Shown: positions 2,715 through 28,604 of the stretch, in pieces
How the letters are laid out: the number at the start of each line of letters is the position of its first letter
Numbering within the stretch: the stretch's first letter is position 1
Source of the DNA: Phoronis australis
Lineage: Eukaryota > Animalia > Phoronida
Reading direction: 5' to 3'
Length of the DNA stretch: 64,000 nucleotides
NCBI GenBank assembly: GCA_002633005.1
Contig: NMRA01000428.1
Coordinates: 232,036 to 296,035 of the forward strand
The notes under the pieces: generated by a model
Seen by the model: only the letters and a program-made list of their open reading frames with translations
What the model was told of the DNA's origin: nothing
Database searches by the model: none
Program-made: the position numbers and the translations under genes

Positions 2715-4814
2715 ATTTTGTAAACAGCGCATTTGGAGAGTTTGGGTTCCACAAAGCAGTGTTCCCTGCTGTCATAAAATTGCAAACTGAAACACTTAAT
2801 ATCAAGAAAAAACGAACTTCAATCGTCAAATACAAGGAGTATTAGGACTGTTTTCATACTCTCCACCCGTGTGTAAAAGATTTATGAATGCATATTGTGT
2901 AAGACAGGTGTGTTCTTAAGCGTGTATTATATAATACTTGGTATTTTGATAACTGGCGAGCAAAAACATTGTACGCACGAGGATGATGATGGACAGACAA
3001 ATGAGATTCCACCACAGCAAAGTGCATGGTTTAATGTATTCCTAAGGCCGCTACATACCCGTTCAGTTGAAGTTCGCAAACTATAGCGTGACTGGCCAAA
3101 CTGTGCATTTTGAAGAGTTCAAATATCCCTGCGTTGCATAATTACTGTAGGACTTGCTTTACCAAAACGACGTTTATCGATAAAATATACACTGGCATTA
3201 AATGTACAGCAAAAACGTGGACACTTTTGATCAAATTTTAAGCATGCAATCAAGCAGTAACGAAGCAATGAACGGTTTCAATTTCCAGTCACATTGTCAA
3301 CAAGTCAAATTTTCTATAACGTCACAGGATTTTTACATTAAGCCTCCGCCTCTCTCACAATGAATTTGAAAAATAATTGAATAGCTTTGGTATAGAAAAT
3401 AATTCTCGAATTCTGACTCACTTCAAGGTTCACGACAGCCTAAATATACGGAATCCTACACAGTGACCTTCAAATCACTGATCGCGGATATAAAATACCC
3501 AAAACGTCACGAAAGGACATGAATCCCGATTCCGGATCACAAAAACGCTCTTCAACCCCTTAGTATATGTAAAATGGAAGTCATTCCAGTCAATGTTGAA
3601 TAGAAACTGAAAAAAGGCAAATGTGTATGTATTTTAGGAAAATATATAGTGAAACAATATGTATGAAAGATTTTATGTACTTGTGCGTTTTCAATTTGTT
3701 TTATCGTTGTACTCATTGTTGAACAGCTAACATACTAACCAGGAACATTCCTATCTCTGCATATTCTATCAAACCCACTGTCACATATGCAAATTTTACA
3801 TGAGTTAAAATTATCCTTCCGTGTCAAGACTACTTGTTGAAATTCGCGTAAAGCGTAGACGAACTACAAGTTTCTTCCAAGACAAGATATCCCTTCTGGT
3901 TTAAGGAAAAATGATTACATTTTCATGACGTTTAACTTAGTATGTCATAAGCTAGACTTGGAAGAAATGCGGGTTAATAGCACGTTCAAGAGTTATGTGA
4001 TGCATATGAACCCCCTGAAGCTATCAAATTTCCGAGACTGTCACGGTTTTACTGAAAGTTCGAACGTCACCAGACCTCAAAAAGATGCATATAATAACTA
4101 TTTATTGACTTTGAAAGCCAAAACTTGTCTTCAAGTCCCAACAAGGGTTGTCCTTTGATGTTCACCTAGAAGTGGATGCGGCGATTTTGCTTACTAATTA
4201 CTGATCAAATATATGATTAATATGTACACGTAGGCAGTGTACGTGCATTTTTCTTACATGTACAAAAACCATTCATGGTAGCCGATAGGGGTATTTTACT
4301 AAAAAGCAACTACGTGCAAACGTAATGAGAAAGCAAGATGTTAAAAACACAGACGAGCATTCTCGTGAAAATCGGTCTTTACCAAGCATGTACAATTGCT
4401 ATTGATTCTAACTTTGGTTCATAGAAGAAAATAACAATATAAAATTTTAATTTTAAAATTTATAAAAGGTGGTAATTCTACTTCAGTTTTGTTGTTTGCC
4501 TCCAAACCGGGTTTCCGAAGATACCCCAGTAAAAAGAAACGTCATCAACTGATTGAAGTTATGATGTTTGGTGTCACCTCAATTTAAGTAGTACATAAAA
4601 ATCAGATTGCACCTTTTAGGCCGAAAAATTCCCTTTACAAGACCGCATAGTTCTATAAGAGGACTCTGAGGAAGTTGGAATCAACATCAGCCAGAGTAGA
4701 ATACTACTTGCTAAACGAGAAATTTCTGTTAACATACATGTACATAAAAACGTGGATGTGTATGTATGTATATATGTATGTGCGTAGGCATCTATGTTTG
4801 CATAGTGTGTTTGT

Positions 4815-4976: not shown

Positions 4977-5270
4977 TTAGTTGGATGCAGACGTTTCGGT
5001 ATGGTTCGCCACACCTTTGTCGATGAATGAAGTGTCTACCGCCGTGGCCTTAGTTAGTATGTTTGAGTACAGGGGAGGTAAATGTACACCGCGGTCCCGG
5101 TTCATAAAGCAGCGCTCCGTTCTGATGTTTATAGATTCTTTGATCTTGCGTGCAAACCAATTTTGTTCTTTGCCGATGAACTTGGATGAGGCAAGGGAGA
5201 CAGAATGTCCATTGGCCAAAGTATGTTCCTGTACAGCTGTTGGTCTGTCTAATTTCTGGTATTCATGCAC
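4977..5270 (-). mobile_element. Penelope-like element 3' fragment (C-terminal GIY-YIG endonuclease region)
   Basis: Translation TAVQEHTLANGH...EQNWFARKIKESINI...MNRDRG.HLPPLY matches the typical PLE GIY-YIG C-terminus; followed by a hammerhead-like motif. Confidence 0.8.
4985..5030 (-). ncRNA. Degenerate minimal hammerhead ribozyme motif in the Penelope pLTR
   Basis: Minus strand reads TCGACAA-A-GGTGTGG-CGAA-CCATACC-GAAAC-GTC. Stem II and GAAAC-GUC are intact; the CUGANGA core is mutated. Confidence 0.55.
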
Positions 5271-5449
5271 GATGACGTCAGCTGCTGAATTGCGCAGCTG
5301 TTAAGTCGACGGCTCGAACTTCTAGCGCAAGGGGTTCGAAATCGACCGCCGTTTCCGCCAAAATGAAGTTCAACACGCGTTGAATAACTATATACATGTA
5401 GGTTACTCAACGGTGCTATTGGTCATGTCAGGCTAGCAACGTGGTATAA

Positions 5450-6300
5450 ATATAGTTTATTACATGAAGAAGTCGTCATCCCTCCATAATCTAGAGCCTT
5501 CGCGCATTTTGGAAAATTATCGTCCTCGCGGACAACGCCCCTAGACCGATAATTCTACAACATCTATTAGGGCTTTAGATATGAGGAATAACCACTGGGA
5601 ACAAGTAATATAAGGATACCATATACTCAGCGATAAACACTGCATCGAATCTATCTACCTGTTTCGACTCGCCTCGGTTTTGTAACCACTTTCTGAGTCA
5701 AAGGCCCGGGTCCAGCGGTCGTGACCTTTTCAGAAACACCGAGTCATTCTTGCTAAAACAATGTTTTTACTCAAAACAAATTGAAAATCTAAACAAAATG
5801 GACATGAAGTGAATCTATAAAATAACTTTTAAGCAACTAATTTAGATTACTACACATCTTATCGTGCTAAGCTCAAACCGTGAAAACGTTGCCTACTAAA
5901 GTAGGTTATGACTTTGTAACAGAGTCCAAGTCAAAGGATCTCGACAACATGTTACCGCATTTAAACTGAATATCGACGATTTACATGTGGGAGAAATGAG
6001 AGATAAACTTTGCATATTTAAAAATATCGTTTTATTGAAATTGTGCTTGGCATTTTTCACAACGTATCAATGTCTGTGCAATGTCGTTTGGCGAACATGC
6101 GATTATTGCGCGTCCTCATTTAAGTATTAGTATTCTATTTTCACGTTCAATGACGTCAGCTGTTGAGTGGAGCAGCGGTTAAGTCGACGGCTCGAAAACT
6201 CTAGCGAAGAGAGTTCAAAACAGTCCTCTGTTCTTCAACGGGCGTTGTTATTTAACGGTTGTATTGGACATGTCGGGCTCATAATGTGGTGAAAGTGCAC
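5450..6300 (+). mobile_element. Dispersed ~0.85-kb non-autonomous element with a terminal palindrome and an internal tRNA-like head (other copies 1-790 +, 27665-28518 -, partial 5271-5450 +)
   Basis: Clear pairwise similarity among copies; the copy at 27665-28518 is absent from the corresponding site in duplicate A. Confidence 0.7.
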
Positions 6301-7283
6301 TGAATGAAAGCAAAGCAGTTACATTACAAGTGTGACCATAGATTAAGAGCTACAAAGCTCATTCAAAAAGTAAATTAGCAACATAATAATCATGGGATGT
6401 CATTGACGTACTGCATGGCAGTGACAATTTTTCTTTATTGCTCTCTTGACACAATTATTAATTTGACATTCCAAACAAAATTTCCTTTGAGGCCACGTGC
6501 CTGCAAAGTTGTAAGCTGTACCTTACTACAGCTTAATGGAGAATGCGGCACTTGTACTTGTTGCACCACTTCAATAACAGGCGTGTTATTCAGCACCCAC
6601 ATTTTCACCGTCCCTCACTAAAGAAAATCTTATGTTGCAGTGGCGTTGCGAGGGGACACAGGGGAAATTGCACCGCGGTGCCATTAGAAATGGGACGCCG
6701 TGAGATCCCCAAAAGATATAAGGTGGATAATGACAAAATTTCTCCTTTACTTGGACGGTGACAAAATGTTAGTGCACGCCCACTTTCGCACAGACAGTTT
6801 AGAGCTAGGGCACAGTCGAAGCAGCAGGGAGTAAAATTGAGACATGTCTCAGTTCAGTGCAACAATATCCACAATTCGCTCATGAATTGTCAATTTTGTA
6901 TTTGACACCCTGTTCATTGCAAAATGCTTCCAGGTTGCTACTCATTTTAATCACCCCTCCCTACTGGTCGCTACCAATTTCGTGCTCGCCCGCAATTAAA
7001 CATTTCTGCCTAAGCCTGTATGCAAGGAAGGCAAATGGTCAGCCCAATCCGTCCAGACATGACCAAAGACGATTTTTAAAGTTCACAGAATTCTTTCAAA
7101 AAGTGAATCTTTTTCGCCCGCTTGCCACACACTATATACGCCACTTCATCCAGTCACAGTAATTAGCAATGATGTTTGTGTTCTCAGGATTTTGCCCTTC
7201 GCTCAAGTTAGGATTATTTTTCAGAAATAATTGTGTGAAGCGCAAGAGCAAATTTCTGACCTACATGTACATGTAATTCTTAA

Positions 7284-8225
7284 ACAGTACACACCATGGA
7301 TTTTTGCACATTTCGAATTACCGGTGGCCATAGACTAAATGTATGACGTAAAATTTAGCCACATCCATGATTATTTTGTGTCATTAGCTCGAAATTTTGA
7401 TTTCTCTTTCAATTTTGCCAATTTTCATATTTCCCGCCATGTGACATCATGGGTTGAACACAAGAGATCAGCGACTAGCATTGAACAACGGCGGAGAGTA
7501 GGGAATTTGAAAGCTACAACGATTATGAGCAAGAAATGAACAAATACTATGAAGAAACGTACGAGAATGGTGGCCAGGATGACGAAATGGGGTTGCACGA
7601 AAGCGAGAACGAGTTTGGTATGTTTTCAGCTGCGTACTTTCTACTTTGAGGCCTTACGAACTGAATCCTCCCGCGAGAGAACCGGCCTCGGGCTCGGCCA
7701 ACAGACGATCCTGAATAAAGAGCCGATGTTTCTGAATATTAAATATCGCCCTTTATTGAACCAGGCCTTCATCGTAACATCTCCTCTGATTGGAGTCGAA
7801 ACACGACTCCTCAAAGTGGGCAGAACACAGAGTGGCTCCGAACAGAATCGCTTGGTCCACGCTGAGGTCCCACACTCTCGTTTGGCGCACGAAGCGATGC
7901 CAGATGCGCAACTTTGGCGTCCTTCGGAACACCGAGACGTTCTCCGTGTGACTGCTGTTGCTGCAGCCTCCGCAAACACATCTTTTCATCCCTCTACGAA
8001 CCTTCTCGACGCTAAATATACTTTACTTTCACTTCACTCTATACACTTAGTTGCTGATCCGAACAGTGTGTCGAACGACTTGGGTTCAACCCATGACGTT
8101 GTACATAATTTTTTTTTTTCAATTTTTACGTGTTTCTTTATGAGATGTGCACTAAAGGCACTGAAATCAAGTAAGATATAATAATAAAATTTATTTCGAG
8201 GTACTAGAGTCATGTTGCGTACACT
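7284..8225 (-). mobile_element. Non-autonomous Kolobok-type DNA transposon with a THAP-domain relic
   Basis: TTAA on both sides (7280-83, 8226-29) versus a single TTAA at the empty site in copy A (~1855). Imperfect TIR ACAGTACACACCATG / AGTGTACGCAACATG; internal IRs at ~7443 and ~8079; THAP motif CVCGGC...W...LCSAHF at 7753-7989. Confidence 0.8.
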
Positions 8226-8688
8226 TTAAGTCACTTTCAACAAAACAGGCCTCAGTGAACGTACGGCTTGTAAAAGTATTATGCGGAATGATTGCTTAAA
8301 TTGTCAGGATCCGTGTTTGACGTCTCAAATTCAAGTCAAGCTGAATTTTCAATTTCATATACTATGTGATTGGAAATGGTTTATGATTTTGATACCAGTG
8401 TAAAGGAGATTCAAAGCCGCGTTTCCTTGCATTCTGGAACAATAATCGAAAAACTTCATGCTTGATTATTGTTTGAAAATGCAACAATATGCAATTTTGG
8501 GAATTGATATACAAGCCTAAAAGTCAGCGATTCGTTTCCAACAGTCTTATTCGCCAATCTCGGATCCCGCTAGTATACATGTATCATGCTGATTGGTGCG
8601 TGATATAACAACATTACGTGTACAATACTTCGACAAGTTTATTAAACTTAACATAATAGACGTACGCAAACTGTTACCCCCAACACGG

Positions 8689-9872
8689 CTACACTACACT
8701 TTCCCGTGGCCTTGACACTACACTACGCTTGCCCACCCCGCAAATTTTAGGCAAATGTACTTCTTGTTTGTCAACACAATCAAAGTCCCCATCATCATCA
8801 TCTTCGAGAAAACTTTCAAATTCTTTTGAATGACTTTCTTCTGATGTCCTATCTTCGATCCAAGTCTTCTCTGGAAGTTGAGCAGCATGGCGACTTGCAA
8901 GGATCTGAAGTAATATTGCAGACAACAACCCCACAGAGGTCAGTCCTAGACAAACATACATTAAGGACATCTGACCGATATTGTGCAGTAGGTATCCAAT
9001 CAGATTGTCCGTACCCAGGTCTACTAAGCTAGATATTACAGATGCCCAGCCAATCAAAACCACAGTAAGACTGACATAATTATTTAGCCAGGACATCATG
9101 GTTGCCCACATGGACGAGGCGAAAAGTCTGTAAACGCAAAAATATACCCATAATGCCGTATGCGAAGTGAGACCAAATGATAAAAGCGTGAATGACAGTG
9201 TTGTTGCAACAGCCTGGGTGAAGAGTATGACGTGTACGGGAACAAGCAAACTGCACAACGAAGTCACGACACGTGACACCAAGAGCATAATGTTTGCAGT
9301 AGATATCAGATATGCGGCTTCCTCTTTTTCAAATTTCAAATCGCTTTCAATTGCAAAGGAAAATCCCCAAAGGGAAAATGCAGTTGTGTGACCACGAAAA
9401 CAAGACAAATACACAGTTGTCCCAATTAGTATGAGCAATCCAAACGTGAAATCCCCGCCAGCCCAATTCCTTGGGGACATAGTTTCCAGGAAACTGGCTT
9501 TTGGTTTGTCATGCGTTTTGCCGTTGCTGTGCACTTTATTGTCGGGAATCAGAATTTTACCTCGTTCAAGAAAATCAAAAATCAAGAAACAGACGCCAAC
9601 CAATAACATGAGATTCGCAAAGATTATAAAGGGTATCTCTATCCTCGACGGCTGAGTGTCTACAGACCATTCGGTGAAATTATCGGTGTTCACTCGCTGC
9701 AAAGACAAGTTAACTAAACTTTCATTAGATACTCGCTGTGTCCGTTGTCGGGAAATGAAAGATTTGCTTATCAATGGCGTGACAGCTTGGCCTAACGGAA
9801 AGCCCACCGTGACGAGATGCAACGGAAACGCCGCTCGTTCTCTCCACATGGAGCTGATTACTTGAGGTACCA
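8689..9872 (-). CDS. MFS transporter exon 4 (terminal; most TM helices and the acidic C-tail)
   Basis: Lies in the 401-aa ORF; acceptor tgttttag at 9880-9873; stop at 8689. Confidence 0.9.
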
Positions 9873-12800
9873 CTAAAACAAAAATATATATCACTTAAGA
9901 TACATATACATGTAAGTCTAATGGATGCTTGATAACCCATTCATGGAATTGGGTACCGCTTATCAAAAAGTCTGAAAATTTGAACCCCCGCAGTATAGGA
10001 CTTCAGACACAATAGAGCTTTTGCCTGTTTGCTACCGGAGTTTGTAGAAAAACGGAGGTAGTGAACCGTTGCCTCAGCCGGAGAAAGAAGGGAATAGCCC
10101 AAAAATGTGGTGACCCAGGGCAGCTAAAAAGTATAGCGACCGACGGACAGGAGAAAAACAATAAAGACTTTGGGAAGTGTTGGGGAAGTGACAGTCGTGA
10201 CAGCTCAAGTTAGTTGGACACCAAATTCTTTTTTAAACTGAGTACACCAGTAAACCATTTCCCAGCACAGAGTACACCATTAAATCTTAACTCAGCACTG
10301 AGTAAAAATTAAAGATGCATTCACTATCCCGTTACTACATGTACTTAAATATGATATCAATAATATATTAATTCGTCCTAAAAATCCAGGGTTAAAAGTC
10401 GTTGCCGAGGTATCGTCCATTTCAATATTCAGTTGAAATTGAGATACATCTTGCAACTGAGTTGAAGAGGAAAACTTTTGGACGGGTCTAACTTGTAAAT
10501 ACTCGGGAGAATCTCGAGGCAACGGACCTTCTTATGGATAACAAAAATCAATGCGTGGGCATCCCAGACGGTAGACTTCATCCAATCTGGATCCCATGAA
10601 ATGTCGCACCGGCCATCGCCTACTTGTTAAACCCGCAGTTGATTTTGGATAGATGAAACTTCTTTATTTGCATTTGTGATGAATTGAATTTCTGTGTGCT
10701 TAGATACTACCAAGATGAAGAGACTTTACACTTAAACGGGTTGCCATTCCCAGATTCTTTTGAGTACATGATGTAGTATATTATCCTAAAAGACTCAATG
10801 GCGACACAAGTGAAAATTTTCCATTTTGTAAAGACGGCTATGCTACGTGTACATCTCTTGGTGTTAAAAAATATCTTTTTGACAAGCATTTTAATTGCTC
10901 TTTCAAAACAGCGTCATCGCGTTCATATCTCATGTTTGTATCGAAATTGTTTACAGTAGATGGCCTGTAATTCCTCTGTCAGCGCTTTCTTGGTGGCTGA
11001 CACTAACCCGCCGGGAAGTAACGGGCATGCCAGGCTAAAAAATAATTTCTAATCAGAAAAAGAACAAGATGAGGGCCACTTTATAGTAGAAAGTAAGCTT
11101 GTTCAAAAGTTGCTTGTTGACTGACAGAAAAGCACTTCCCGAACCGAATGCTCGTAAACCAAACATTTTAAAAATAATTTATAAGTTGCTCGTTCATACT
11201 ACACATATTACAGCAAATCACGCCAAGTTTTGCTTTAGACTTTTTTGCACTCGGTCGACCTGTCGAAAAATGCAATCTGTTTGGATATGATCGCGTGAGA
11301 CAAACACATACCTTCACAAGTTTAAAGGGATTTTCCTATCAGACACTTACGATTGTTGACAATTGCTGCAGGGGTAACACTGATGAAGCGTAACACACCA
11401 AGCACCTCGACAGATGGCGCAATAGGCATCATTGCGTAAAAAAGAGCGCCAACAATGCAGCCAAAAGCAATCACCAAGTTACTTCTGAAATGACGTTAAG
11501 CATTTGAAGTTTCAATGCGTACATATGTGATTGTGTGTGTGCGTGTGGGTGTATGTGCGTGTGTATGTGTGTGTATCTTTGTGTTTGCGTGTTTTTGCGT
11601 TTGGGTATGTATGTGCGTACTAAGATTTTAATTCAAAAATTGCATATGGTATGATAAACACCTGCAGTAATGACGTTTTCGAGTGCGCATGCGTAAGTGC
11701 GATTGCGTGTATGCGTGTGTTTGCGTGTGTGTGTGAGTTTGAGTGAGTGTGTGCGTGCGTGCATGCTTGCGTGTGTGCGCACGCTTTTAAAGTCCTTCTC
11801 TCAAACTGCCCATGTGGTTCCAGTATCCGAATATACTTACTACATTAAATTTTATTTTTGACACCCTTTATTTATATTCTTTTCGCCTTTTTTGCCAAAA
11901 GCGATTTTTGAACAGTATTTGACCCTTCTCTCTGAGCGTATGATTACCGGTTGTTATCGGTTATTTCCGTACCCACATTTCCGGCTCATCAGTTCAGGAA
12001 CTTGTCCTGAACGCAGCCATTTTTTCCTTGTAACTGAATGTGCTATCGCTTGCTCGAAAAGTCTTCATTATTTTGTTTTATTAGTAATATCTCGTGATTC
12101 GTTTGCATATGAACTGTATTTATAGTTTGTAGCTAGTGGTCGTTGATTTTTTTTGGAATGTTACGCGTACTTAGTATGTTAAAATAGCATTGGTGTTTAG
12201 TTCCTTACGTAGGCCGGTCGGAACCTAGGAACCAATATGAGTCGAACCAATTTTTTCGGTTTCATTTTTTTTCTCGTTTTGAAAAAGTACTTTGCTATCA
12301 TCGGAAAGGTAGTGCATTCTACTCAGTAAAAATCGAAAAAGTATCAAAATCGGGGCAAGCAGTGTAAAGTTATTGCAATTTTTTTGGCGAAATTTGGGTC
12401 ACTTTGTTTGGATCGCGTCGGCCATATTGGTGGAGAGCGGGATAAGTGTTGAGTTCAAAAATTTGTGTAAATTGTTTTCGTCAACAAATTACGGTGAAAT
12501 TTAGCTAGACATATCTTTACTTACTATTCTGCACGATTTAACAGTGTTCACCAAATTTCAGCCACGCAGTTGTTACTCATTAAGTGATAAATGTGCTCAC
12601 AATTCCCGTTGGTCTTCGTCTCATTTCTGGCGGCACCGACAACATGGCGACTTTTGCTGAACTGAAAGGCATGTTCAATCGGCTACTTTGTAATTTGTGA
12701 AGATTTAACGTTGATACATTTTGACAAACGTTGCAACAAAAAAGAAACTTTGTTCAATTTCCGTGTTTTTGTTAAAAAATATAAGATGTATTCGAAGTAT

Positions 12801-15800
12801 TTTACTGTAAATTTCCCATTCAGTGACCTTACACGAAGCTAAAAAAATAGTTGAAATAATTTTGAAATGTTTTTTTGTTTGACTGTCAACTGCTGTTCAG
12901 GACTTGATTCGGTGTCACAAAATGATTCATATTTTTCTAAATTTTGAGTCTCAATTGCTTTCAAGACATGTTTTGTAACTTATTGCCTCTTAATTCAGGT
13001 TATCAAGTCAACAATATGAATAATCTTAATTTGAGAAATAAGCTATGTTGGATTGTGAAGCTTCAAGCCTCTAATTCTTGTTCCTTGCAACTTCATATTT
13101 TTTAAATGATGCTTGTCAAATTCTGGTGTAAGGAAACACTATTCCATCACCATGGTAATAGTTACATGTATGTCCACTTTCATATCATGGAAACTTTGCA
13201 CAGTTCGCCAGAAGTACCCAAGTTCTAAACAAATCTCGTTTGAGCGAGCGCTGCGGCCAGCGACCAGTTAGACCTAAGGGTAGCCTTGGCGCAAAGCTGT
13301 ACTGTATAGGCCTATTAACGAGCTGTATTTTGACGATAGTCTTCACTGGTAGCTGGCACTGAGGCTAACTAAGGTCTGCCGCGGCAGTGTGACACAGGAC
13401 TAACCAGCCCGTAATTTCATGCAAGTGTCTGAAACTACCCTTGAATATATGCAGCATTTATGATTTGACCATTTTACTTCGACAAAACAGCTTGCAACCT
13501 CATGCGTTTACCGTTCGCCAGTGTCTGGTCTCGATCGGCTACGGGTCCGATAGGCTGCGGTCCGGAGTCTGGCAAAATAATTTCTGTCAAAATTTACTCG
13601 TCACATTTCTTCAGCAAATTCGATAAAATTGTCGGTATTTTGATTTTATTAAAATTAAGGCGCGCTGTCGATTATTTTATCCCCGTTTGCAGGCTGGTAA
13701 CAGGCACTCACACTGACGGCGTTTTCTTAGCCTGGGTTCCTGAATGAATTGTACTTCCGGGTTCGCGGCAAGTTCAAAATGGCAGTGGTTCTTCGGGTGC
13801 GAATCGTGAGTGGCGCGTTCATTTGAACTTTTTTCGAGTACGGATCGTGTATTAGTTATGGGGTAGGTACTTCTTGGATCCTTATAACATCCTCTAACCA
13901 TGTACAAAGGGTTAACAACACGTGAGAGAAGGACTTTAAGTGTTTCTGCGTTAGTGTGTGGTTGCGTAAAAGCATTTTAATGAATAAACTGTTCAATACA
14001 TGCCGTATAGTTTAATAAACACCTGCAGCAATGACGTTGGCCAATCCCCGTGATCTAATCGTTGCACTCGAAAGTTGTCTCGAAAACTGACAAATTCATG
14101 GAACGCTCCTTGCGTCACCACTTTCCGAGTCATTTTTGACACACTGTTTTGTGAATGCCGGGATCGGCCAGTTGTAAAACGCCTGTCGATGTTTTCCAAA
14201 GAACCAATCAATGTTAAGGTCGCAATAGTTTGCTGAACAAAACAATCAGATCGTAATGTTTGGATCTGATTGACACCAGCAAAGGCTGTCGACCATGACA
14301 TCGATGAAAGCTTAAGAAAAAATTGCTGGCTACAGTTACAATAAATGTACAGCATTGGGTGGCTTTAAAAAGGATTTTGTGAGCCCGACAACTAGCTGGC
14401 TGACCGTTACGGCGGCGAAAGTAACCGATTCATTCCTTTTAGTGTTTTATAGCGTGCGTACAATAAAACAACTGCTTGTTTGTCAATCATAGTTTTACTA
14501 CAGCTTATTTTCGTTTAGAAAGGGGTGTAAGACAATTTGATTCATTGTCGCGCCCATAATTTTGCCTAGCTGTTGAATTTATGGCTAATTATATACGAAA
14601 TAGTAATTTTATTAAAGGCATATATGTTGAGAAAACTGAAGTTAAAATTCTCCAGTATGCAGATGACACTACCTCACATTACTGTTTTGTCCACAGCTAA
14701 ATATTAAGAAATGTGAAAGGTTATATCTAAAATAGGTTGAGAAAAAGAGTGTTCTGAACCACTTGATTGCTTCAAGTTGACTGGCAAACCAATCAAGAGT
14801 ATCGGTATATTTGTTAGTCATCACAAGCTAGAAAATGATTTTTTTTTTAAATTTTGAATTCAATATTAAGTTTTTTAAAATTTTCTTGATATCTGGAAAA
14901 GTCGTAACATTCCATTGTTAGGCAGAATCAATGTAATTAAAACTTTTGCGCTGTCTCAATTAATTTATGTTATGAGCAATTTAGGAATTGACAGCGAACG
15001 TAGAGCTGAGTTAAATACTATAATAAAAAATTTTGTTTGGCGAAATAAAGCACCCAGAATTAAACAAAATGTGGCTGTAAACTCCCATAAAAAGGGTGGT
15101 TTGTCAGTTCCTTATATCAATATTATGTTCAAGTCCTTACTAATTAAATCAGTTTTTGACCACAATAAGATTAAAAACCGGACGATAGCCGCACAGATAA
15201 AAAAGTTCATGTTCAATTCAACGTTTCGTCTTCATCATTAGACATCATCAGGATCATATTACAACAATTTAGGACAACAGTACTGACTATATTCTCTGTT
15301 TTTTTTATGGATGTTACCTCAGCTGCATGTTGGCACTTGTTGTCCTAAATTGTTGTAATATGATCCTGATGATGTCTAATGATAAAGACGAAACGTTGAA
15401 TTGAACATGAACTTTTTTATCTGTACGATTATCGTGCGGTTTTTTCAAGGCATTACTAGTTAAGTGGGTTACGCGTTGCTTAATAGATGGACACAATAAG
15501 TTTTTAAATTGTTTCCAAGGTATATTTTCAAAACATACGGGGTAGTTTGATCTTTAAATCGAATGATGATTGAAATATGCTGCCTCTTGCAAATATTGAT
15601 AGCTTTTAGCATGACATCTTGGTTGCTTGGGAAGAAATTGGTGTCATTTACATAAGGACATAACAATTGTAAACCAAGCTGTGTGGAATAACAAAAATAC
15701 GTGTATATTGAGTAATGCAAGGACTGTATATTTAATAGTTTCTTTGAGGCTGGTATAATTTTGTGAAGGATCTTTTGAATTTTGATAATAAATTTCTGAC

Positions 15801-16298
15801 GTGGAAGGTTTTGAACGATAGACATAAGCTTTCAAATTGGATTCATTATGCTGCTTTGAGACGTGCGATTAAGTTGAAAGCTGAGCGTTCCATGTCAAAA
15901 TGTATAAAAAAATACTCTCCGGTCAAGTGAAATAAAGACTGTGTTTTCTAGAAATATTTTTCTTTCCAAAATTGTTTCGCCTCCTGATGTAAACTTTGTG
16001 GTGGGAAATTCAGAAACTTTTAATTTATGTAACTGCACAAAACGATTTAACCTTAGATAAGAATGTTATTTTGACAGCATATTTTGGATATAATTTCAAA
16101 GATATTAATATCACATTAACTATTGTCAGTGTTTCATTCATAAATGCTCTAGAGACCAGATTATTCCTAGACATTCACACTTTCAATGTTTCTTGTATAT
16201 TTATTGAAATATACAACACTGTGAAACTGCCTTTTATTAACCCTCAATACTTTTTTTAGATTAGATCAACCGTGAAATTGTATTATTTAGATATGTCC

Positions 16299-16340
<42 letters not shown>

Positions 16341-18281
16341 GTGTGTGTGTGTGTGTTTCGTTTGCATACAACGCATTGTTGTATGTCTTAGTGTATTTAG
16401 AAATAAAATGTTTATATAAAAAACAATCAGGAGCGCCACCGCTAGACTAAAATGTGAACAACAAACAAATGTTTATAGTTAAGCCCACAAGAAAGTAGAG
16501 AGGGAAAGTTACTTCAATCAAAAATCGGATGCGCATCATTTTAGCGGAATTGATGTCACGACGTCAGAATTTGTTGACAATGGTAAACGTTCATTTCTGA
16601 AAACTTTCCGACAGTGCAAGTTGCAGACAGATTAGGATTTTTTCAAATAAAATGAGTCTGAATGTAAAGTTGTTTACTTTGACTCATTCGAAGTGGTAAG
16701 TGACCTTTTGACTGGTCAGATATCGGCTTAGTTGGCCCGTTAATTAACATCGGATCATGCGATATACAAGAAAAATTAATTTCCACTTTTAGACTATAAT
16801 TGGTGGAACATTCTGTGTTTTGTTTTGTTTTGTTTAATTCATACAACGACAAGTTTCGACCTTACATGCACAATCTGTCACTGCAAAAAATCTGAATGAT
16901 CCAGACGATTTTCCTTCTTTGAACCGGGACTGGAACATCGGACCTTTTGCTAACCGTGGGAGATGCTCATTAATATGTTTGATAGAATTTTCTGTATTCG
17001 ATCGGTTGTCATGGAGACTCAGTGGAGTAGAGCGTCTGCAAGGATTGCAAACAAGTCCTGAGTTCGAGTCGCTGTTGGGGCAGTAACTTTTTCAGACTTC
17101 TATTCATTAGGTGGCCTTAGGTGTCGTGCTGGCCAGACTTACAAATGTTTGCAATTGGTGATTACCTTACGTAAAAAGGGGAAAAAAAGACCAGACCCGT
17201 GCAGTTGCGAGCTTACATGCGCGATCAGGCAAATAGGTCACAAACTGTATAAAGTCAACTCACCTTTTAGGGAACTTGCCCATCACACAAGCTAACACAG
17301 GCGAAACCACGAGAAAACTCAAGGATGCAATTGACAGGGCGCTAGCTACAGATGCATAGTTGCTATTGGTTCGTTTGATGAGCTCTGGTAAGCAGATACC
17401 AATGTTCGTAAATTGACAACCCTGGGAACAAATATGAAACCGAATGACAAAATGGGAGTGTTAACTAAGCCCTGGCAGAACCACGTGTAATTTTATCGCT
17501 CCGAGAATCCCACATGCATCCGACTATCGAAACAAATTAAAGACGGGCCACACATTAATATTGCAAATTTTAAACGTCTTTTCTATTTGTTACGCGCTAT
17601 TATAAGAAGAGTGTGCATTTCCGTCGAGTCCTCATGGCGTGTATTGCTAGAATCGGTTTGTTCATGTTTGGTGGTTCTCGAAAACAAAGGCCAAGGGGTA
17701 TAAAATTACGTAATTACAATGAGTTTTCAATGATTGCAAGGGATGGAATAGAAAATCACTTTGTTTTGCAATTTATACATATTCATTTTTATAAGTTTAG
17801 AGGGTCAGAAAGGTATTTTTAGGTATTCCAAAAAAGTCAGGTGTTTTTGTGTACTATTTAACGTAAACTACATGCATTTTCTCGTTTTGTCTAATCTTAA
17901 ATCCTACCTCATCTAATTTACACACAATATATGCATTAAAGCAATAATTAGAGAGTTAATACCGCAGTTTTGGGAATACGTAGCAACAAATTGTTCCGTC
18001 TGCAAAAAGGTAATTATCAATGGCAATTTTGCGTTGGGTTAGACTTTCATTTGAAACCAAATCACACAGACTAATATTAACTGATTGCGTAAGCCCAGGG
18101 CCCTCTTTTTGCGTAAGAGCAGCAAAAATGTGAATAAACTTACCACCGCAAAAAAGACTAGAGTGAATGCCATCGATTTACAAATGAAGTAATTTCGTGT
18201 TCCCACTGGAAGATGGGGTTGCAATATTTCCTCAACGGGTTCTCCTTTGTCAGCCTTCGGATGATTTCTCCCATTCGTCAT
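8689..18281 (-). CDS. 4-exon MFS transporter gene, MFSD4 / sodium-dependent glucose transporter 1 (NaGLT1)-like, ~537 aa; join(complement 18144..18281, 17264..17421, 11351..11484, 8689..9872)
   Basis: All three introns have GT..AG ends with compatible phases (0, 2, 1). Exon lengths 138+158+134+1184 = 1614 nt = 537 codons + stop. The product has many hydrophobic segments and MFSD4-like motifs (G..LPEL, LHL..GF.LGQA.TPL, FAIESDLKF.K.EAAYL). Family call is from motif recognition. Confidence 0.85.
11351..11484 (-). CDS. MFS transporter exon 3 (SNLVIAFGCIVGALFYAMMPIAPSVEVLGVLRF...)
   Basis: Acceptor tttcag, donor GTAAGT, phases match both neighbouring exons; hydrophobic. Confidence 0.8.
11791..13935. 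mobile_element. Non-autonomous Kolobok-type element in MFS intron 2
   Basis: Perfect 13-bp TIR AGTCCTTCTCTCA / TGAGAGAAGGACT, each flanked by TTAA. Confidence 0.8.
15212..15258 (-). ncRNA. Minimal hammerhead ribozyme motif (left arm of inverted pair)
   Basis: Minus strand CTGATGA-T-GTCT-aatgatga-AGAC-GAAA-CGTT. Confidence 0.7.
15360..15403 (+). ncRNA. Minimal hammerhead ribozyme motif (right arm of inverted pair)
   Basis: CTGATGA (15366-72) T GTCT aatgataa AGAC GAAA (15390-93) CGTT; palindromic AACGTT in place of stem III. Confidence 0.7.
17008..17090 (+). repeat. tRNA-derived SINE-like head (degenerate)
   Basis: A-box-like ACTCAGTGGAGTAGAGC and B-box GAGTTCGAGTC, then a T-run; no foldable cloverleaf. 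Confidence 0.45.
17264..17421 (-). CDS. MFS transporter exon 2 (GCQFTNIGICLPELIKRTN...GKFPK)
   Basis: Acceptor ttcccag, donor GTGAGT, open frame with TM segments; not in the ORF track. Confidence 0.8.
18144..18281 (-). CDS. MFS transporter exon 1 (MTNGRNHP...FTLVFFAV)
   Basis: ATG at 18281 (alternative in-frame ATG at 18299); donor GTAAGT at 18143-18138; phase 0. Confidence 0.75.
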
Positions 18282-18354
18282 ATTTTGTAAACAACTCATT
18301 TGTACTGTTGAGTTCCAACAGCAGTGTTCCCTGCTGTCAAAGAATTACAAACTG

Positions 18355-19915
18355 AAACAAAAAAAGAAAAGCAACGTGGAGCATTGAAATGTTCCCATGA
18401 AGGTACCACAAACGGTGGGCTTTCAGGGGTGTTTATTTGTGGCACAGAAATAGCAATTACATTGCGCAAATTAAGTCGAATCGATCCCAAACCTGGAACG
18501 TGTCATCGCTTCTTTGATAGAAAGCTTCTACCAAATTGCCACTAGTGGGATATGGGCGGAAAAAATAACAGTAGTGAAAGTCGTCGGAAAATCATCGCCA
18601 AGCGTCCCCTTCACACTAAGAAAATGTATGCCAATTGATAGACGGGCAGACGCAAAAAAACAGCCTACAAAACAGTAAAATTGGCAACTAGATGGCACAA
18701 TATACGACAAATCTATCCGAAAACAGGAACATTTCATTGTCTCAGTAAAAAGTTATTTGCCAAATTTCATAAAATTCCGTCAAGGAGATTGAAAAGAGAG
18801 AAAAACAGAGGAAAACGGAAAAAAATTGCCACTAGGGGGCACGGAGTTTATCTGAAAGTCGTTGCCGTCCGTTGTCAACTTCATATAAATACACTTGCTT
18901 AGTGTAATAAAAATCGTGCGGAGAATTTTTGGGAGATACAGCCATAGGCGTAAGTAAAACAAAACTGCCACCAGGAGGCGCCACAGTAATCGAGGTCCTG
19001 GGAAAATCATCGAGAGCCGCCCTCTTCACAGTGGGAATATACTTGCCAATTTCCACAATCATCCTTAGACTAGTTTGGTTGATAGAGGGGCAGACGCTAA
19101 AAAAGCAGACTTGAGAACAATAAAAATGGCACTCGGTGGCGCAAAATACATGTACCTTGAATCCATTCTAAAACGAATAAATAGTATAACCTCACTAATA
19201 GATGCATATCCGCCAAATTTTATTGAAATCCGTTGAGGAACGTAAAAAAGCTAAACTTGCCACAAGGGTTCATACCGCTAGTCCGCTCTGCCAGAAATCC
19301 GTCGTCGTCCGTTGTAGACTTCATCTAAATACATTTGCTAAATATAATAAAGATCATGAAGAGCGAAGTTTAGGAGATACAGCCATGAGAACAAAAACAA
19401 GCAAAACTGCCACTAGTAGGCGCCACAGCAATCGAAGTCGTAGGAAAATCATCGTTAGCCATATTCTTCACAGTACTAATGTATACGCCAGTTTTCACAA
19501 TCATCCTTAGGGTGGTTTGGCTGACACTGGGCCGGTGGACGCCAAAATACAGTCTCGAAAACAGTAAAAATCCCACTAGGTGGCGTATAATACTTTCATT
19601 CTATCTGAAAATGTAAGGATAGCGTCATTTCACTAGTAAATGCCTAACTGCCAAATTTCATGAAAATCTGTTAGGGCACCCGGAGATACAGAAGTAAACG
19701 TAAAAATAAAACTGCCACTAGGGGGCACACCTGTGGACGGGTAGATCTGAAATTCGTCGTTATCCGTCGCCAACTTCTTAGAAACATATCTGCCAAATCT
19801 CATTAAAATCCTGTGACGGGTTTAGGAGATTCAGCTGCGGACGACGGACCCCGGACGCCCTGACAGAGATCAGGGCAAGATGCACCCACATATAATTATG
19901 TGGGAATATAAAACG
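18355..19915 (+). mobile_element. Helentron-derived (HINE/pearl-like) non-autonomous element with an internal ~145-bp tandem array (higher-order trimer ~435 bp)
   Basis: Absent from copy A; nine repeat units; GGAC/GACG-rich stretch at ~19838-19860; terminal hairpin CCCACATA-TAAT-TATGTGGG at ~19885-19904. Confidence 0.6.
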
Positions 19916-21558
19916 AAAACAGAATTTCAACGTTGATATTGAACTTCACTCGTCAAATACAACATGGGATATTATGATTGTTTCATACTCTTCACCCGTG
20001 TGAAAAGATTCCTGAGGGTATATTGCGTAAGAAAGGTGTGTTCTTAAGTATGGATTACATAATACTTGCTGTTTTGATAACTGACGAGTACGGTGGTAGT
20101 AAAAGGACAGCAAGGCAACTTTTCTCTGTTACTAACTCTGTCGGTAGAGTTACTACCACTCTCGATAGTCTTACTATCTCTATCGATAGACTTATCAACT
20201 CTATCGATGGTCTTACTAACTCTATCGATAGACTCAGTAACTCTATGGCTAACTAATATACACCTGAGCTCGTTTTCAGAGTCCGTCAATGGTAATACGT
20301 TTGCAATATTGTCTAAAATCATGGTTCTTAGATCACTGCACTGTTGATTTCAAGTTTGACAGTATGTTGGCTTTTGCTGTGGCTCAGGAACTCATATGTA
20401 GGCACGGAACAGACTGTTGAACTTTTCGAATTGTTTTTAATTGAGTAGACAAGCTTTTGTGGTGTATTAGTTGAATAGTTGTGTTGCGTATTATTTATTT
20501 CAAAGTACATATTGAGTATGACGGTACCTGTAAGTAAGATACAATGTATGTCTAGGATGGACTTAAGTCGTTCTTTTTGTTTCTTTTGTTATACATGTAC
20601 CGGTATATACAAATGATGATGCAGTAACTCTAAGCAAGATACACGTAGGTGGGAGATGGTTCTTAAGAGTCAACGATTCGTTACTTTCAGAATGGTAAAC
20701 TTGTCGACAATGGCTTCCAGTTTTGAAGGTGTGCTGACCATTGGGTCGGAGTGCCATGTTTTAAACGCCTGTTTATCACAGAGGCAATCAGGTTGTGTGC
20801 AGTTGCCAATACGACAGTATTGATAATTTATGAGACTTGTTATTGAGTTATATGGAGTTACTGGATTTAATGTTTTTTACTAAATAAATATTCAATAAAT
20901 ACTATTAACGTTTCACTGCAAACATTTACATCTGGTATCAAAATTGTATGTATGAGCAAAAAGTGTAGCATCGGAACAAACCGTTTGAATTCGTCATGAA
21001 CAATTATTTATTATAAGCCTAACTACATCCCAGTACTTTTTGTCTAGTGACTATATAAGTATCCTCATTGGCCAATGTTAGATGTTAATACCAGCGCCTT
21101 ATTGTTTTTCCTTGTTTTTCATTTTTGTTATCTCTGTAACAGGGATTTGATTATAGCAAGTCTCGGTAGGGTTTACATGTATTGTCTGTTATTTTTAGTG
21201 CCTCTGCGCTGGTGTGGCTCTTACTAACCCTTGGTACATACCTTTTCTGCATTAAACTCGAAGCTCAGATCAAACTGTGCTCTGTTAGTGCTATTTGTCA
21301 ATTTGTCATTTTTTCCGGCTGTATGTACAAAAATTCTTTCCCTCACCCGTGAACCAGGATGCTAGGGAAAGTTTTTGGATTTATGTTTTTAGGGTTTTGT
21401 AACTATGTAACATTGACCTATATCTGGGAAGGGGGATATTGCCTTTACAAGACCTGTCTATCACATAGCTCGGAAGTCATATATTGGAGTTTTTGTTTAC
21501 AGGTCTATGAATCTGCGTATCATTGTCTTTTCATTGACATTTACCTAGTATCTAAAAG

Positions 21559-22770
21559 ATGATTAACGTTATGTCTTTAAACTGCAGAGGTTTACGAAAT
21601 TTTCAAAAGCGTAATGATGTTTTTAATTATCCAAAAGGAAAAAATATAATATTTATTGTCTCCAAGACACGCATTTCATAGAATCAGACCATGACGTGAT
21701 TAGGGCCCAGTGGGGCTTTGACATTTTTGTGAGTCCAGGTAGAAGAGAAGCAGGGGGTGTGACTATCCTAATTAATAATAATTTTGAATATGAAATTACA
21801 AATTGTTATAATGATGAGAAAGGCAATCATTCAATTATTGAAATAGTGTTGGGAAAAATTATGACAGTCACCCTAGCCTGCATATATGGTCCTAACCAAG
21901 ATTCTTCACTTTTTATGAAAACATAGCAGATCCCATCTCTTTGTTCAACTCCGAATTTATTGTTCTGTGCGGAGATTCGAGTTTGGTCCTAGATTATGAC
22001 CGGGACTGTTTTGGTTATCTCAATCTGAACAATCCTCAGGCCAGAAAAGCAGTTTTAAACTTAAAGCAAGCATTTAATTTGGTTGATCGTTGGAGAGTCT
22101 ATAATCCGGACCGTACCTCTTTTACATGGAGTTGGAAAAACCCAGTTAATAAATCACGCCTTGACTCTCTTCTAATTTCCGACGAGTTATTATCTTCGTT
22201 AAACGCGGTAGAAATAAACCCAGGCTACAGAACGGATCATCCAGCCATTCGGTTGGAGGTCAAGTTGCACTCTTTTGAACGTGGCAGACGCTTATGGAAA
22301 TTTAATAATTCTCTACTCCGAGACAAAAAGTATGTGGAACTAGTAAAAATTATTATTCAAGAACCAAAATTGAATATGCTCCTGACATTGACGAAGATTT
22401 ACTGTTTAACATGTTCCTACTAAACATTAGATTTTTCACTCTGTCATATAGTGTTTTAAAAAATAAAGAAAAAAAGAAAACTGCATTTAGAAAGATTAAT
22501 AAATACTGTCCACCGGTTCGTTCAGAATACTGATTTTCAATTTTTTAGCGTTAGGCTAGAAATTCGTCAGGCCGAGTACGAAGAAATTAGAAGGGAATAC
22601 ATTAACGGTTAAATACTGAGATCTCGTGCTAAGTGGATAGAAAATGGTGAAAAACCAACAAGATATTTTAGTAATTTAGAAAAACGTAATCTTGTTAATA
22701 AAAATATCTCAAGTTTAATAGATGACAAGGGTACATTGATCTGTAGTCAAAAGGGAATTCTGGAGAGAGG
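21559..22770 (+). mobile_element. L1/Tx1-type LINE ORF2 5' relic (APE endonuclease), disrupted
   Basis: SLNCRGL, CLQDTH, GGVTIL, IYGPN, SRLD, TDH, LWKFNNSLL, RSRAKWIENGEKPTRYF; stops and frameshifts. Confidence 0.85.
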
Positions 22771-23229
22771 TAAACCTCCAAATCTAATTATATTAACAAA
22801 AGTAATTAACAGTTATTACTCCTGTGAAAAATATATTTATTCAAAAAATTTACAAATGGAAAAATTTACAAACAGGTGGCCACGAATGCATAATTTAATA
22901 GCAATGAAAGGATATTTTATCATTCCAAAATACTATCTCCCCTTTTCAGAGTCTTATACTACTACACTGTCTTGTATGTTTTTTTCTTTAAATGTACTTC
23001 TAAAATCCGGTTCAAGCATACATTTAACTTAGTAAACTTTAATTTCATTGAATTGTAAAGTAAGGCAAGGGAACGAACCCCAGACCTTTGTCCTTGTTTA
23101 TGTCGAACTGGGAGAATAAAAAACTATTTATTATAGGTCTTCAAGGAAGAAAAATATGAATGAGTGACAAATTAAATTTAAATTAAAAGGCTCCGGTGAT
23201 AGCAAATTGTTATGAAAAAGGATCTAGAC

Positions 23230-23650
23230 AACGAAAAGGGATTGTCACCCGGAAATAACGTTTTGTTAGGTTCACTTTTTGAAAATATATCCTCCGAACT
23301 AGCCTTTTACAACGTCTGGGTTCAACTCCAGACTGATCAATGACAGTTAACAACTGCCAAATTGTGCCTCGTGGTAAGTTAAACCATTTGCTACGCACTT
23401 CTGATGCATAAATGTATAACCGTGCACCTTACATGAACCCGCGACGTGTTCTTCAACAAAATTAACCATTTCATCAAAATCAGACATATTTTTAAGGCGC
23501 TGAAGTGCATAAGTCACCAAATACACGTCGCAAATTACCTTATGCTCAGTGACGCTCCAAAACAACGTTTGAGTACCTTTATTATTTCATTTTGAGTCAG
23601 TCCTGGCTTGAATAAAGCGACAATGGTGCTGCACTATATCTCATTATAAA
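23230..23650 (-). mobile_element. Transposase N-terminal relic, IS3EU / integrase-core type
   Basis: Frameshifted GSCKVHGYTFMHQKC...LLTVIDQSGVEPRRCKRLVRRIY resembles the G..HGYR.MH..C...DP.GV..R....L.RR.Y motif. Confidence 0.55.
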
Positions 23651-23784
23651 TATCTTGATGTTTCTATCACACCTAAATTGTCATGGTCAAAAGTGACAAG
23701 AACTCTTTCTTGTCAAGCAAATAAAGCTACATCAGGTGTTTTGAAATTACAGCGCAGATGTCGCGATATGCCCCCATCACTTGC

Positions 23785-24660
23785 CTTTCAGTTATTTGAT
23801 AAACTGGTGTTATGGTGCAGAGATTTGGGGTTTTAAAGAATACGAGTGTTTAGAAAAAATTCATTTAAAATTTTGTAAATGGACCCTGGGACTTGGCAGT
23901 TCTTGCTCTAACGCTGCAGTATTGGGTGAATGTGACTGATACCCTATGTTTTCTGTTATCCAAGGGCCGCTTACAACATGTTGTACAGACTAGATGAAAA
24001 TGGTAGACATATGTATAATTGGGCAAGCTCAGTCTGCAATTTATTGTCAATGTATGGTTTCTATGATGTTTGGGTATACCAAGGAGTTGCATGTCAAGAG
24101 TCGTCTTTAAATATTTTTTCACAACGGGTTAAGGACTGTGCTTTGCAAAGGTGGCATTCCGATGTTGATTCCAATTCTGAGTTACTCAGTTACTATTAGA
24201 AAAATTTTAAGGTTGTATTTAAACATGAAAACTATTTAAAAATTGAAAATCTTCCAAGAGTGTTCGTGCAAAGTTTTACACGTTTTCGATGTGCAAACCA
24301 CAGACTGGCAGTAGAAACTGGTCGTCACGTAAATGTGATATATCAAGACAGAGTGTGTACATTATGCTCGAGGAATTGTGTCGAGGATGAATATCACTTT
24401 TTGTTAGTTTGCGACGCTTTTTCCGAAATCAGAGTTATGTTTATAAGTGAGAGCCTCTGGACAAGTCCATCTTTGTTTAAATTTCATAGACTATTATGTA
24501 ATCCCGATATTTCAGTTGTGAAATATATATAATACGCATCTAAAAAACGGAACAGCTTGCGCATTACTGACTAGTGTGCATAGCACTCCAATGATCTTGT
24601 TTGCTTGTTTGTGGTACTTTGAGCCGAAGGCCATGTGTACAAATAAAGGAAGAAGAAGAA
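23785..24660 (+). mobile_element. 5'-truncated non-LTR retrotransposon 3' end (RTEX/L2-type)
   Basis: EIWGF, LEKIHLKFCK..LG, NAAVLGEC, HRLAVETGR...RVCTLC...VEDEYHFLLVC; AATAAA followed by a (GAA)n tail. Confidence 0.8.
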
Positions 24661-27600: not shown

Positions 27601-27664
27601 TCGACAGAAGCCAGAGTAAAGTACCACTTGCCAAGCGAAAAGTTTCGACCAACATAAATAAATA

Positions 27665-28515: not shown

Positions 28516-28518
<3 letters not shown>
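27665..28518 (-). mobile_element. Best-preserved copy of the palindrome + tRNA-like element, abutting a (TA)n(TG)n microsatellite
   Basis: 145-bp imperfect palindrome 28374-28518; A-box TGGTGTAGTGG and B-box GGTTCGAATCC at ~27765-27820 on the minus strand. Confidence 0.7.

Positions 28519-28604
<86 letters not shown>

What the first reader, a model, noticed from the sequence alone, without database searches (positions are those of the whole stretch)
15173..15445. Inverted pair of hammerhead ribozymes forming a possible self-locking foldback in an MFS intron
Seen: two ~115-bp arms (15173-15287, 15329-15445) are near-perfect reverse complements around a ~40-bp spacer. Each carries a full CUGAUGA-U-stem II(GUCU/AGAC)-GAAA-CGUU core pointing outward. 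The cassette interrupts an L1/Tx1 relic and is bracketed by a diverged duplication of that relic (TTCAAG..TTACTA.TTAA...CACAATAAG on both sides). Known: Penelope pLTRs and retrozymes carry minimal type-I hammerheads with a palindromic stem III that cleave as dimers, and Penelope insertions can give inverted pLTRs. Inference: on either strand the antisense arm is transcribed before the ribozyme, so the MFS pre-mRNA would carry a hammerhead sequestered in a long dsRNA hairpin (possible siRNA/ADAR substrate). It may be a mobile non-autonomous ribozyme-foldback family. Stem I pairing is weak.
Basis: partly seen in the sequence, partly recalled or inferred. Interest (0 to 1): 0.8.

Follow-up and report, generated by a model that had tools for sequence, protein, structure and literature searches.

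The report
Head-to-head stump of Penelope retrotransposon
This 300-base mirror-image repeat is real and is most likely the cut-short end of a common Penelope-type jumping gene, laid down twice head-to-head in one insertion; that layout is already described in animals, and its two self-cutting RNA motifs are predicted to be inactive by-products, not a switch.

Summary
The foldback is real: arms 15173-15279 and 15338-15444 (107 bp, 5 mismatches, 58-bp spacer), each with an outward-facing minimal hammerhead core, in a LINE-1-like relic inside a predicted MFS intron. Reads of a related or identical organism show the arm is a very abundant dispersed repeat with two 3' ends about 30 nt apart. The spacer is the right copy's own upstream sequence. 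An ATG opens 12 codons in the arm and 22 with the tail, the same numbers as Adineta Pen2a. This is the published Penelope-like layout: an inverted 5'-truncated copy, a one-sided tail and a TSD. Opposite-strand minimal hammerhead pairs were reported in 2014. Other head-to-head junctions occur in the runs, but none listed is this one, so a mobile cassette is unsupported. The hairpin would bury the ribozyme, but a lone minimal hammerhead needs no lock. The parent RT/endonuclease gene was not found, and no RNA read came from this locus. This scan noted the same kind in several other genomes. Ordinary.

The parts
15129..15142 (+). left copy of target-site duplication (14 bp; 15 bp if 15128 is counted)
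   Evidence: 12/14 identical to 15445-15458; both copies share T(15129/15445) and C(15140/15456) where LINE paralogues mostly have A and T
15143..15172 (-). about 30-nt 3' tail of the element, on the left copy only (outer end 15141-15144)
   Evidence: loose ends behind 15444 in 4 of 4 runs read as the reverse complement of this stretch; family depth jumps at 15140-15144, with mixed flanks at 15141-44 and 15170-71
15173..15279 (-). left arm: inverted, 5'-truncated pLTR-like copy
15220..15251 (-). minimal hammerhead core, left; predicted cut after GUU, between 15220 and 15219
   Evidence: cut site inferred from the hammerhead consensus (recalled)
15143..15210 (-). ORF stub: ATG, 12 full codons to the arm end and 22 to the tail end (MNFFICAAIVRFLILLWSKTDL)
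   Evidence: same 12/22-aa geometry as A. vaga Pen2a (PMC3846280); no protein homologue found
15278..15285 (.). head-to-head junction, with an 8-bp palindrome CAGTACTG
   Evidence: junction placed at 15279/15280-15284 from where family reads leave the reference
15280..15337 (+). 'spacer': the right copy's further 5' family sequence, with a copy-specific loss of about 10 nt near 15300
   Evidence: family depth is high from about 15305; loose ends before 15303-15306 match 15284-15299 apart from the lost stretch
15338..15444 (+). right arm: pLTR-like 3' end without tail; carries 4 of the 5 arm differences as departures from the family majority
15366..15397 (+). minimal hammerhead core, right; predicted cut between 15397 and 15398
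15445..15458 (+). right copy of target-site duplication
   Evidence: a LINE paralogue contig runs from 15149 straight into the right-flank sequence
14500..16250 (+). decayed LINE-1-like (L1/Tx1) ORF2 relic that received the insertion; limits approximate
   Evidence: removing the insert and one TSD copy gives an open 115-aa frame across the site
11485..17263 (-). predicted intron of the MFS-like host gene
   Evidence: GT/AG ends and in-frame join; last exon MFS_1 E 5e-5

Best explanation
The 302-bp insert (15143-15444) is most likely a single insertion of the ribozyme-bearing end (pLTR) of an abundant Penelope-like retroelement family, likely copied twice and joined head-to-head. Shown: two 5'-truncated copies of one dispersed repeat (165 nt forward, 137 nt inverted), 3' ends outward, a 30-nt tail on one side only, and a 14-bp duplication of the LINE relic around them. 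Inferred mechanism: the element's GIY-YIG endonuclease nicked both strands of the AT-rich relic about 14 bp apart. Its reverse transcriptase primed from each nick, once at the short start site and once at the tail start site, stopped early both times, and the two cDNA heads were joined. The outward-facing hammerhead pair and the antisense-first order follow from that geometry. If the intron is transcribed, the RNA is predicted to form a hairpin of about 105 bp that buries the ribozyme. The ribozyme would in any case be predicted inactive alone (2-bp stem I, no same-strand partner). It is most likely a neutral fossil.
For: Abundant dispersed family: summed contig depth over the arm is 18,000-149,000 in run X1, against 38-49 for the long flank-bearing contigs listed. 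That suggests hundreds to thousands of copies, though the tool warns depth is no copy number. Two 3' ends: mixed-flank loose ends (agreement 0.4-0.7) at 15141-15144 and at 15170-15171. Tail equals left flank in 4 of 4 runs. TSD 12/14, with two letters shared against LINE paralogues; a paralogue contig crosses the site without the insert. Both arms share four departures from the family majority, one of them rare (15196: 126,607 of 127,425 depth units differ), which fits one template. ORF stub of 12/22 codons and a 30-nt tail, against 12/22 aa and 31 bp in A. vaga Pen2a, where head-to-head is the commonest arrangement and junction palindromes occur. The layout is described as typical in PMC8557442; opposite-strand minimal hammerhead pairs 100-700 bp apart are in PMC4209133; the PAc protein cleaves and extends both strands and has two RT start sites bounding the tail (PMC11167929). 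The motif class looks real: 7 of 7 metagenome loci with the same core have 3-8 bp of stem I, which the pattern did not ask for, and one lies about 1.7 kb downstream of an RT fragment.
Against: The parent RT-GIY-YIG gene was not found (0 hits among 1.84 billion proteins for a 30-aa query; 0 DNA hits), so the assignment rests on architecture and motif. No Rfam hammerhead hit. The TSD (14-15 bp, 2 mismatches) is longer than the 8-10 bp seen in the PMC3846280 passages, and more diverged than the arms (14% against 5%, small numbers). The runs hold the family but no listed piece of this locus (share of words 0.11-0.16; listed LINE pieces are diverged), so they may come from another individual or a relative, and no true empty allele was seen. 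The two-nick mechanism is inference; PMC3846280 prefers self-priming on an antisense template.
Confidence: 0.85

Rival explanations
1. The whole foldback is a mobile non-autonomous unit, re-copied with a fixed junction.
For: Either strand's transcript ends in a proper family 3' end. Head-to-head junctions recur in the family (15186/15279, 15214-15304 and 15177/15232 in DNA contigs; 15212-15306 in 23 and 28 RNA reads). Captured sequences between pLTRs were moved in trans in A. vaga.
Against: The listed junctions have other breakpoints. Depth collapses at this junction (X1: 18,540 and 17,892 beside it; 1,525 and 596 across it), and reads at 15279 continue as uninterrupted family sequence. The tables were cut to the best-supported rows, and the runs may lack this locus.
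Confidence: 0.05
2. The source is a non-autonomous, retrozyme-like repeat rather than the end of a coding Penelope element.
For: No parent ORF was found. Animal retrozymes are proposed to derive from pLTRs (bioRxiv 10.64898/2026.07.22.740005). Family RNA is present on both strands.
Against: No tandem array at the locus and no 'goes back' joints listed. The core is minimal, not canonical. The ORF stub and two-ended tail are features of coding elements.
Confidence: 0.06
3. The cassette has been co-opted as a self-locking ribozyme switch or a dsRNA regulator of the MFS gene.
For: 105 of 107 positions can pair in the MFS-sense strand, with a 91-bp uninterrupted run when G-U is allowed. Both cores are intact.
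Against: Five mismatches fall where they would under neutral decay. Intact cores are expected at 5% divergence. Stem I is only 2 bp. The lock is 67.8 kcal/mol deep, too deep to switch. The site is 1.8 and 3.7 kb from the splice sites. There is no evidence of conservation or of expression of this locus.
Confidence: 0.02
4. Two independent insertions at one site later homogenised by gene conversion, or an assembly artefact.
For: The TSD copies are more diverged than the arms.
Against: One TSD brackets both copies. The arms differ at 5 sites and one has a tail, which a mis-assembly would not give.
Confidence: 0.02

Closest known systems
Inverted-pLTR insertions of endonuclease-positive Penelope-like elements (A. 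vaga Pen2/Pen2a, PMC3846280; general layout, PMC8557442 Fig. 2 legend)
   Same: Head-to-head inverted 5'-truncated copy, tail of about 30 bp on one end only, TSD, ORF start inside the pLTR (12 aa, 22 with tail), short palindrome at the junction, insertion into another non-LTR element.
   Different: Both copies are cut down to pLTR size, so no RT/EN is present. The TSD is 14-15 bp rather than 8-10. The parent element is unidentified.
Minimal hammerheads (min-HHR) of metazoan PLEs (Cervera and De la Pena 2014, PMC4209133)
   Same: Type-I core, extra base before stem II, G10.1-C11.1 pair, palindromic ACGU in place of helix III; opposite-strand pairs 100-700 bp apart were reported in Schistosoma mansoni.
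   Different: Stem II is 4 bp (7-8 in S. mansoni) and stem I is 2 contiguous bp (4-5 typical; 2 in the D. virilis variant). Read loose ends suggest a sister subfamily one base shorter here, which would allow 4 bp if its 5' strand is unchanged (inference).
Animal non-LTR retrozymes (PMC7229834; bioRxiv 10.64898/2026.07.22.740005)
   Same: Non-coding, hammerhead-bearing, abundant, related to pLTRs.
   Different: Retrozymes are head-to-tail tandem units of about 170-400 nt with classical type-I ribozymes. This is a head-to-head pair with minimal cores and no tandem array.
MITEs and foldback DNA transposons (features recalled, not from a call)
   Same: Long terminal inverted arms and a TSD.
   Different: The arms are 5'-truncated retroelement ends, asymmetric because of the tail, and the junction varies between loci.

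Membership tests
EN+ Penelope-like element insertion | RT plus GIY-YIG endonuclease ORF in the full-length element | tested here: inconclusive
   Absent from this stump, as expected.
EN+ Penelope-like element insertion | pLTR carrying a minimal or type-I hammerhead near the ORF start | tested here: met
   Cores in both arms, with an ATG 10 nt after the predicted cut.
EN+ Penelope-like element insertion | Optional 30-40-bp tail, i.e. two alternative 3' ends | tested here: met
   Family ends at 15141-44 and 15170-71; tail on the left copy only.
EN+ Penelope-like element insertion | Inverted 5'-truncated copy adjacent head-to-head | tested here: met
   other junctions in the family.
EN+ Penelope-like element insertion | Target-site duplication | tested here: met
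   14 bp, 12/14 identical; LINE frame continuous across the emptied site; a paralogue crosses it. No orthologous empty allele seen.
Minimal hammerhead ribozyme | Conserved core CUGANGA / GAAA / NUH with stems I and II and palindromic 15.2-16.2 | tested here: met
   stem I marginal at 2 bp.
Minimal hammerhead ribozyme | Self-cleavage as a dimer or with protein help | not testable with these tools
   No pile-up of read ends in 3 RNA runs (table 6), but these are ordinary RNA-seq libraries and the reads come from other copies.
Rfam hammerhead families | Covariance-model score at the gathering threshold | tested here: not met
   Minimal forms lack helix III, so this lowers only membership in the Rfam families.
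Non-LTR retrozyme | Head-to-tail tandem units of about 170-400 nt, each with a type-I hammerhead | tested here: not met
   Only a (GT)n array in 14000-16600; no go-back joints listed.
Non-LTR retrozyme | Abundant monomeric linear and circular RNA | tested here: inconclusive
   Family reads lie on both strands with no sharp ends; library type unsuited.
Mobile foldback or MITE family | Same two-arm unit with a fixed junction at many loci | tested here: not met
   Depth collapse at the junction and only other breakpoints listed. Caveat: the runs may lack this locus, and the tables are cut.

The most novel reading that the evidence does not exclude
Head-to-head pLTR stumps like this one are not dead ends. 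Read through from a host intron they give a near-perfect hairpin that locks the ribozyme yet leaves the 30-nt tail (an RT start site) free at the 3' end. They could then be re-copied in trans as a ribozyme-proof mini-element while feeding double-stranded RNA into silencing or A-to-I editing of their own family. One other head-to-head locus is present in RNA of 3 of 3 libraries, and RNA reads show a slight, unconfirmed A>G/T>C excess.
Probability: 0.07. Interest if true: 0.55.

Novelty: new member of a known kind. Interest (0 to 1): 0.13.

Why it matters
As it stands it matters little: it is a clean, fully bounded example of the known Penelope inverted-pLTR insertion (TSD, one-sided tail, 12/22-codon ORF start) in an unnamed animal. 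Its use is as one data point on how these elements insert. Both arms share rare variants and end at the two different family 3' ends, which fits copying of one RNA from both nicked strands, as the in vitro PAc work allows. It would matter more only if the unit were shown to move again or to seed silencing of its family.

Tried and rejected
Rfam: 0 hits at gathering score; 9 hits at E<=10, none a hammerhead, the best a generic hairpin match to MIR2606 far below its cut-off, so a microRNA reading is rejected. No whole genome was held, so the genome-wide BLAST could not be run. Parent ORF: phmmer of the 30-aa stub gave 0 hits; Pfam gave 0 for it; the Atlas gave no answer; tail and arm DNA motifs gave 0 in genome contigs and viral contigs. 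The metagenome scan gave 7 loci with the same core, none matching the arm beyond the core. 'Target resembles tail' (CACAATAAG) rejected as chance: 66 of 1109 tiles, 263 of 5000 shuffles. 'Junction at the ribozyme cut site' (lead from e1-8622168) is not met here: the left copy stops 59 nt upstream of the cut. No RNA holder was listed by the index. Reads at least 99% alike to the locus: 0 of 333, 0 of 312, 0 of 393 and 0 of 441 laid, with about 18-19% of each run read, so nothing is shown about this locus's expression. Editing: A>G+T>C against G>A+C>T places were 68:41 and 68:38 in RNA against 46:51 and 52:49 in DNA on the right stretch; 2 of 6 Fisher tests fell below 0.05, uncorrected, and none on the left stretch. 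The individuals and copies differ, so this is not counted as evidence. No pile-ups of read ends. A homologue search with the MFS exon gave nothing at E<=1e-20, so the host group was not established. Earlier findings: none near this place and none by sequence. Supplements of the papers were not read; they may hold closer family examples.

Full report
Observation. The inverted repeat is real. The region folds at -167.7 kcal/mol, z -22.8. Each arm carries CTGATGA-T-GTCT-loop-AGAC-GAAACGTT, facing outward. The pattern occurs 3 times in the window against 0.01 expected; the third match, at 61912, is another family. Rfam gives no hammerhead hit. The flank is a decayed LINE-1-like ORF2 (E 1.3e-5 to LINE-1 ORF2p) on the plus strand, inside a predicted 5.8-kb GT-AG intron (11485-17263) of a minus-strand MFS-like gene.

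What the reads show. No genome was held, so I laid public runs of 'organism A' on each side of the cassette. These runs hold the repeat family and LINE paralogues but no listed piece of this locus, so they may come from another individual or a close relative. Summed contig depth over the arm is 18,000-149,000 in X1, against 38-49 for the long flank-bearing contigs listed: a family of probably hundreds to thousands of copies (rough; the tool warns that depth is no copy number). Molecules that run past the right arm's end (15444) continue, in 4 of 4 runs, with the reverse complement of the left flank 15172-15143. On the left side, family depth rises from about 750 to 36,000-60,000 at 15140-15169, and loose ends with mixed flanks sit at 15141-15144 and again at 15170-15171. 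So the family has two 3' ends about 30 nt apart; the left copy has the long end and the right copy the short one. The spacer is family sequence too: it is the right copy's further 5' part, with a private loss of about 10 nt near 15300.

The 'diverged duplication'. Outside the tail lies a 14-bp duplication, 15129-15142 and 15445-15458, 12/14 identical. Both copies share T and C at two places where LINE paralogues mostly have A and T, and a paralogue contig runs from 15149 straight into the right-flank sequence. Without the insert and one copy, the LINE frame is open across the site. The rest of the resemblance, CACAATAAG, is at chance level (66 of 1109 window tiles). The insert is thus 15143-15444 (outer tail end uncertain by 1-2 nt): an inverted 137-nt copy with tail joined head-to-head to a forward 165-nt copy. 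The junction carries the palindrome CAGTACTG.

One event, not a mobile unit. Both arms share four departures from the family majority, one of them rare (at 15196, 126,607 of 127,425 depth units differ), which fits a single template. Other opposite-orientation junctions occur in the family: 15186/15279, 15214-15304 and 15177/15232 in single DNA contigs, and 15212-15306 in RNA (23 and 28 reads; the same joint is 15306/15405, 15 and 19 reads). None listed is this junction. Depth falls to 1,525 and 596 across it, against about 18,000 beside it, and reads at 15279 continue as ordinary family sequence. The tables show only the best-supported rows and the locus may be absent from these animals, so this counts against a common mobile cassette without excluding a rare one.

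The ribozyme. The core fits the minimal hammerhead of PMC4209133 (parts 1-2 of 4 read): an extra base before stem II, a G-C closing pair, and palindromic ACGU instead of helix III. Seven metagenome loci with the same core all have 3-8 bp of stem I that the pattern did not ask for, and one lies downstream of an RT fragment, so the motif class looks real. The window's two copies have only 2 bp. That paper found no cleavage for a single motif and low cleavage for dimers; PMC11167929 (passages and part 2 of section 3) found that the PAc ribozyme cleaves only with the element's protein. In the MFS-sense RNA the antisense arm comes first, and all 15 core bases are predicted paired at P>=0.997. Forcing the hammerhead fold costs 67.8 kcal/mol, and 10.1 even in a lone arm. 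No RNA read came from this locus (0 of 333, 312, 393 and 441 at 99%), no read-end pile-ups were seen, and the slight A>G/T>C excess in RNA was significant in 2 of 6 uncorrected tests on paralogous copies. dsRNA processing is untested.

Mechanism (inferred). The endonuclease nicks both strands about 14 bp apart; the RT primes at each nick, once at each of the two start sites; both cDNAs stop early and are joined. [quoted passage not shown] Two earlier notes of this scan put the same two-sided reading. PMC3846280 prefers self-priming on an antisense template; my data do not separate the two.

Comparison. PMC8557442 (passages) describes an inverted 5'-truncated copy adjacent at the 5' end and a 30-40-bp tail, often at one end only, as typical. 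PMC3846280 (passages) gives Pen2a: inverted pLTR, 31-bp tail, 9-bp TSD, and 12 aa of ORF in the pLTR, 22 with the tail. Here an ATG gives 12 and 22 codons. PMC4209133 already notes dual minimal hammerheads 100-700 bp apart on opposite strands. Retrozyme membership fails on the tandem criterion (PMC7229834, abstract only; bioRxiv 2026.07.22.740005, part 1 of 5). The one defining feature left open is the parent RT/GIY-YIG ORF. Four literature searches were run; no supplements were read. This scan has noted the same layout in at least four other genomes (unchecked notes).

Verdict. Observation partly confirmed, interpretation partly supported. A new copy of a known kind of insertion; interest 0.13.

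Noticed in passing
window 61912-61944 (+): A third minimal hammerhead core of another family (4-bp stem I with two G-U pairs), after a T-rich tract and before a short hydrophobic frame; probably another solo pLTR.
   Followed up: partly
window 4977-5300 (-): Frame ending in ...WFARKIKESINIR...MNRDRGVHLPPLYSNIL, resembling the C-terminal end of a Penelope GIY-YIG endonuclease (resemblance recalled; Pfam gave no hit). A GAAACGTC follows at 4997 without a recognisable first core half.
   Followed up: partly
window 1-4739 against 5445-8986 and 18107-28525: A second, compact MFS-like paralogue region: exon-like and intron sequence 72-88% alike, with large insertions in the copy that holds this finding.
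   Followed up: no
runs X5, X6, X7; joint 15212-15306 (15306/15405): Another head-to-head copy of the same family is present in RNA of 3 of 3 libraries; only one arm holds the ribozyme, and the junction has short TGT microhomology.
   Followed up: partly
L002 3-767, 2501-2530, 2693-4327: Metagenome contig with an RT fragment that ends without a C-terminal endonuclease, then a minimal hammerhead with an 8-bp stem I, a 72-bp direct repeat, and a 545-aa ORF with a faint SGNH/GDSL hit (E 0.033).
   Followed up: partly
L005 1-1121 and the end of L006 (same contig): A 3.76-kb contig with identical 1121-bp inverted ends, each with a minimal hammerhead facing inward; may be an assembly artefact.
   Followed up: no
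window 39166-43696 (+): A near-intact two-ORF LINE (328-aa ORF1-like and 1059-aa endonuclease-RT frames).
   Followed up: no
window 47593-47757 and 28374-28518: Two further, more diverged foldbacks (about 70% and 78% self-complementary) without a hammerhead core.
   Followed up: no
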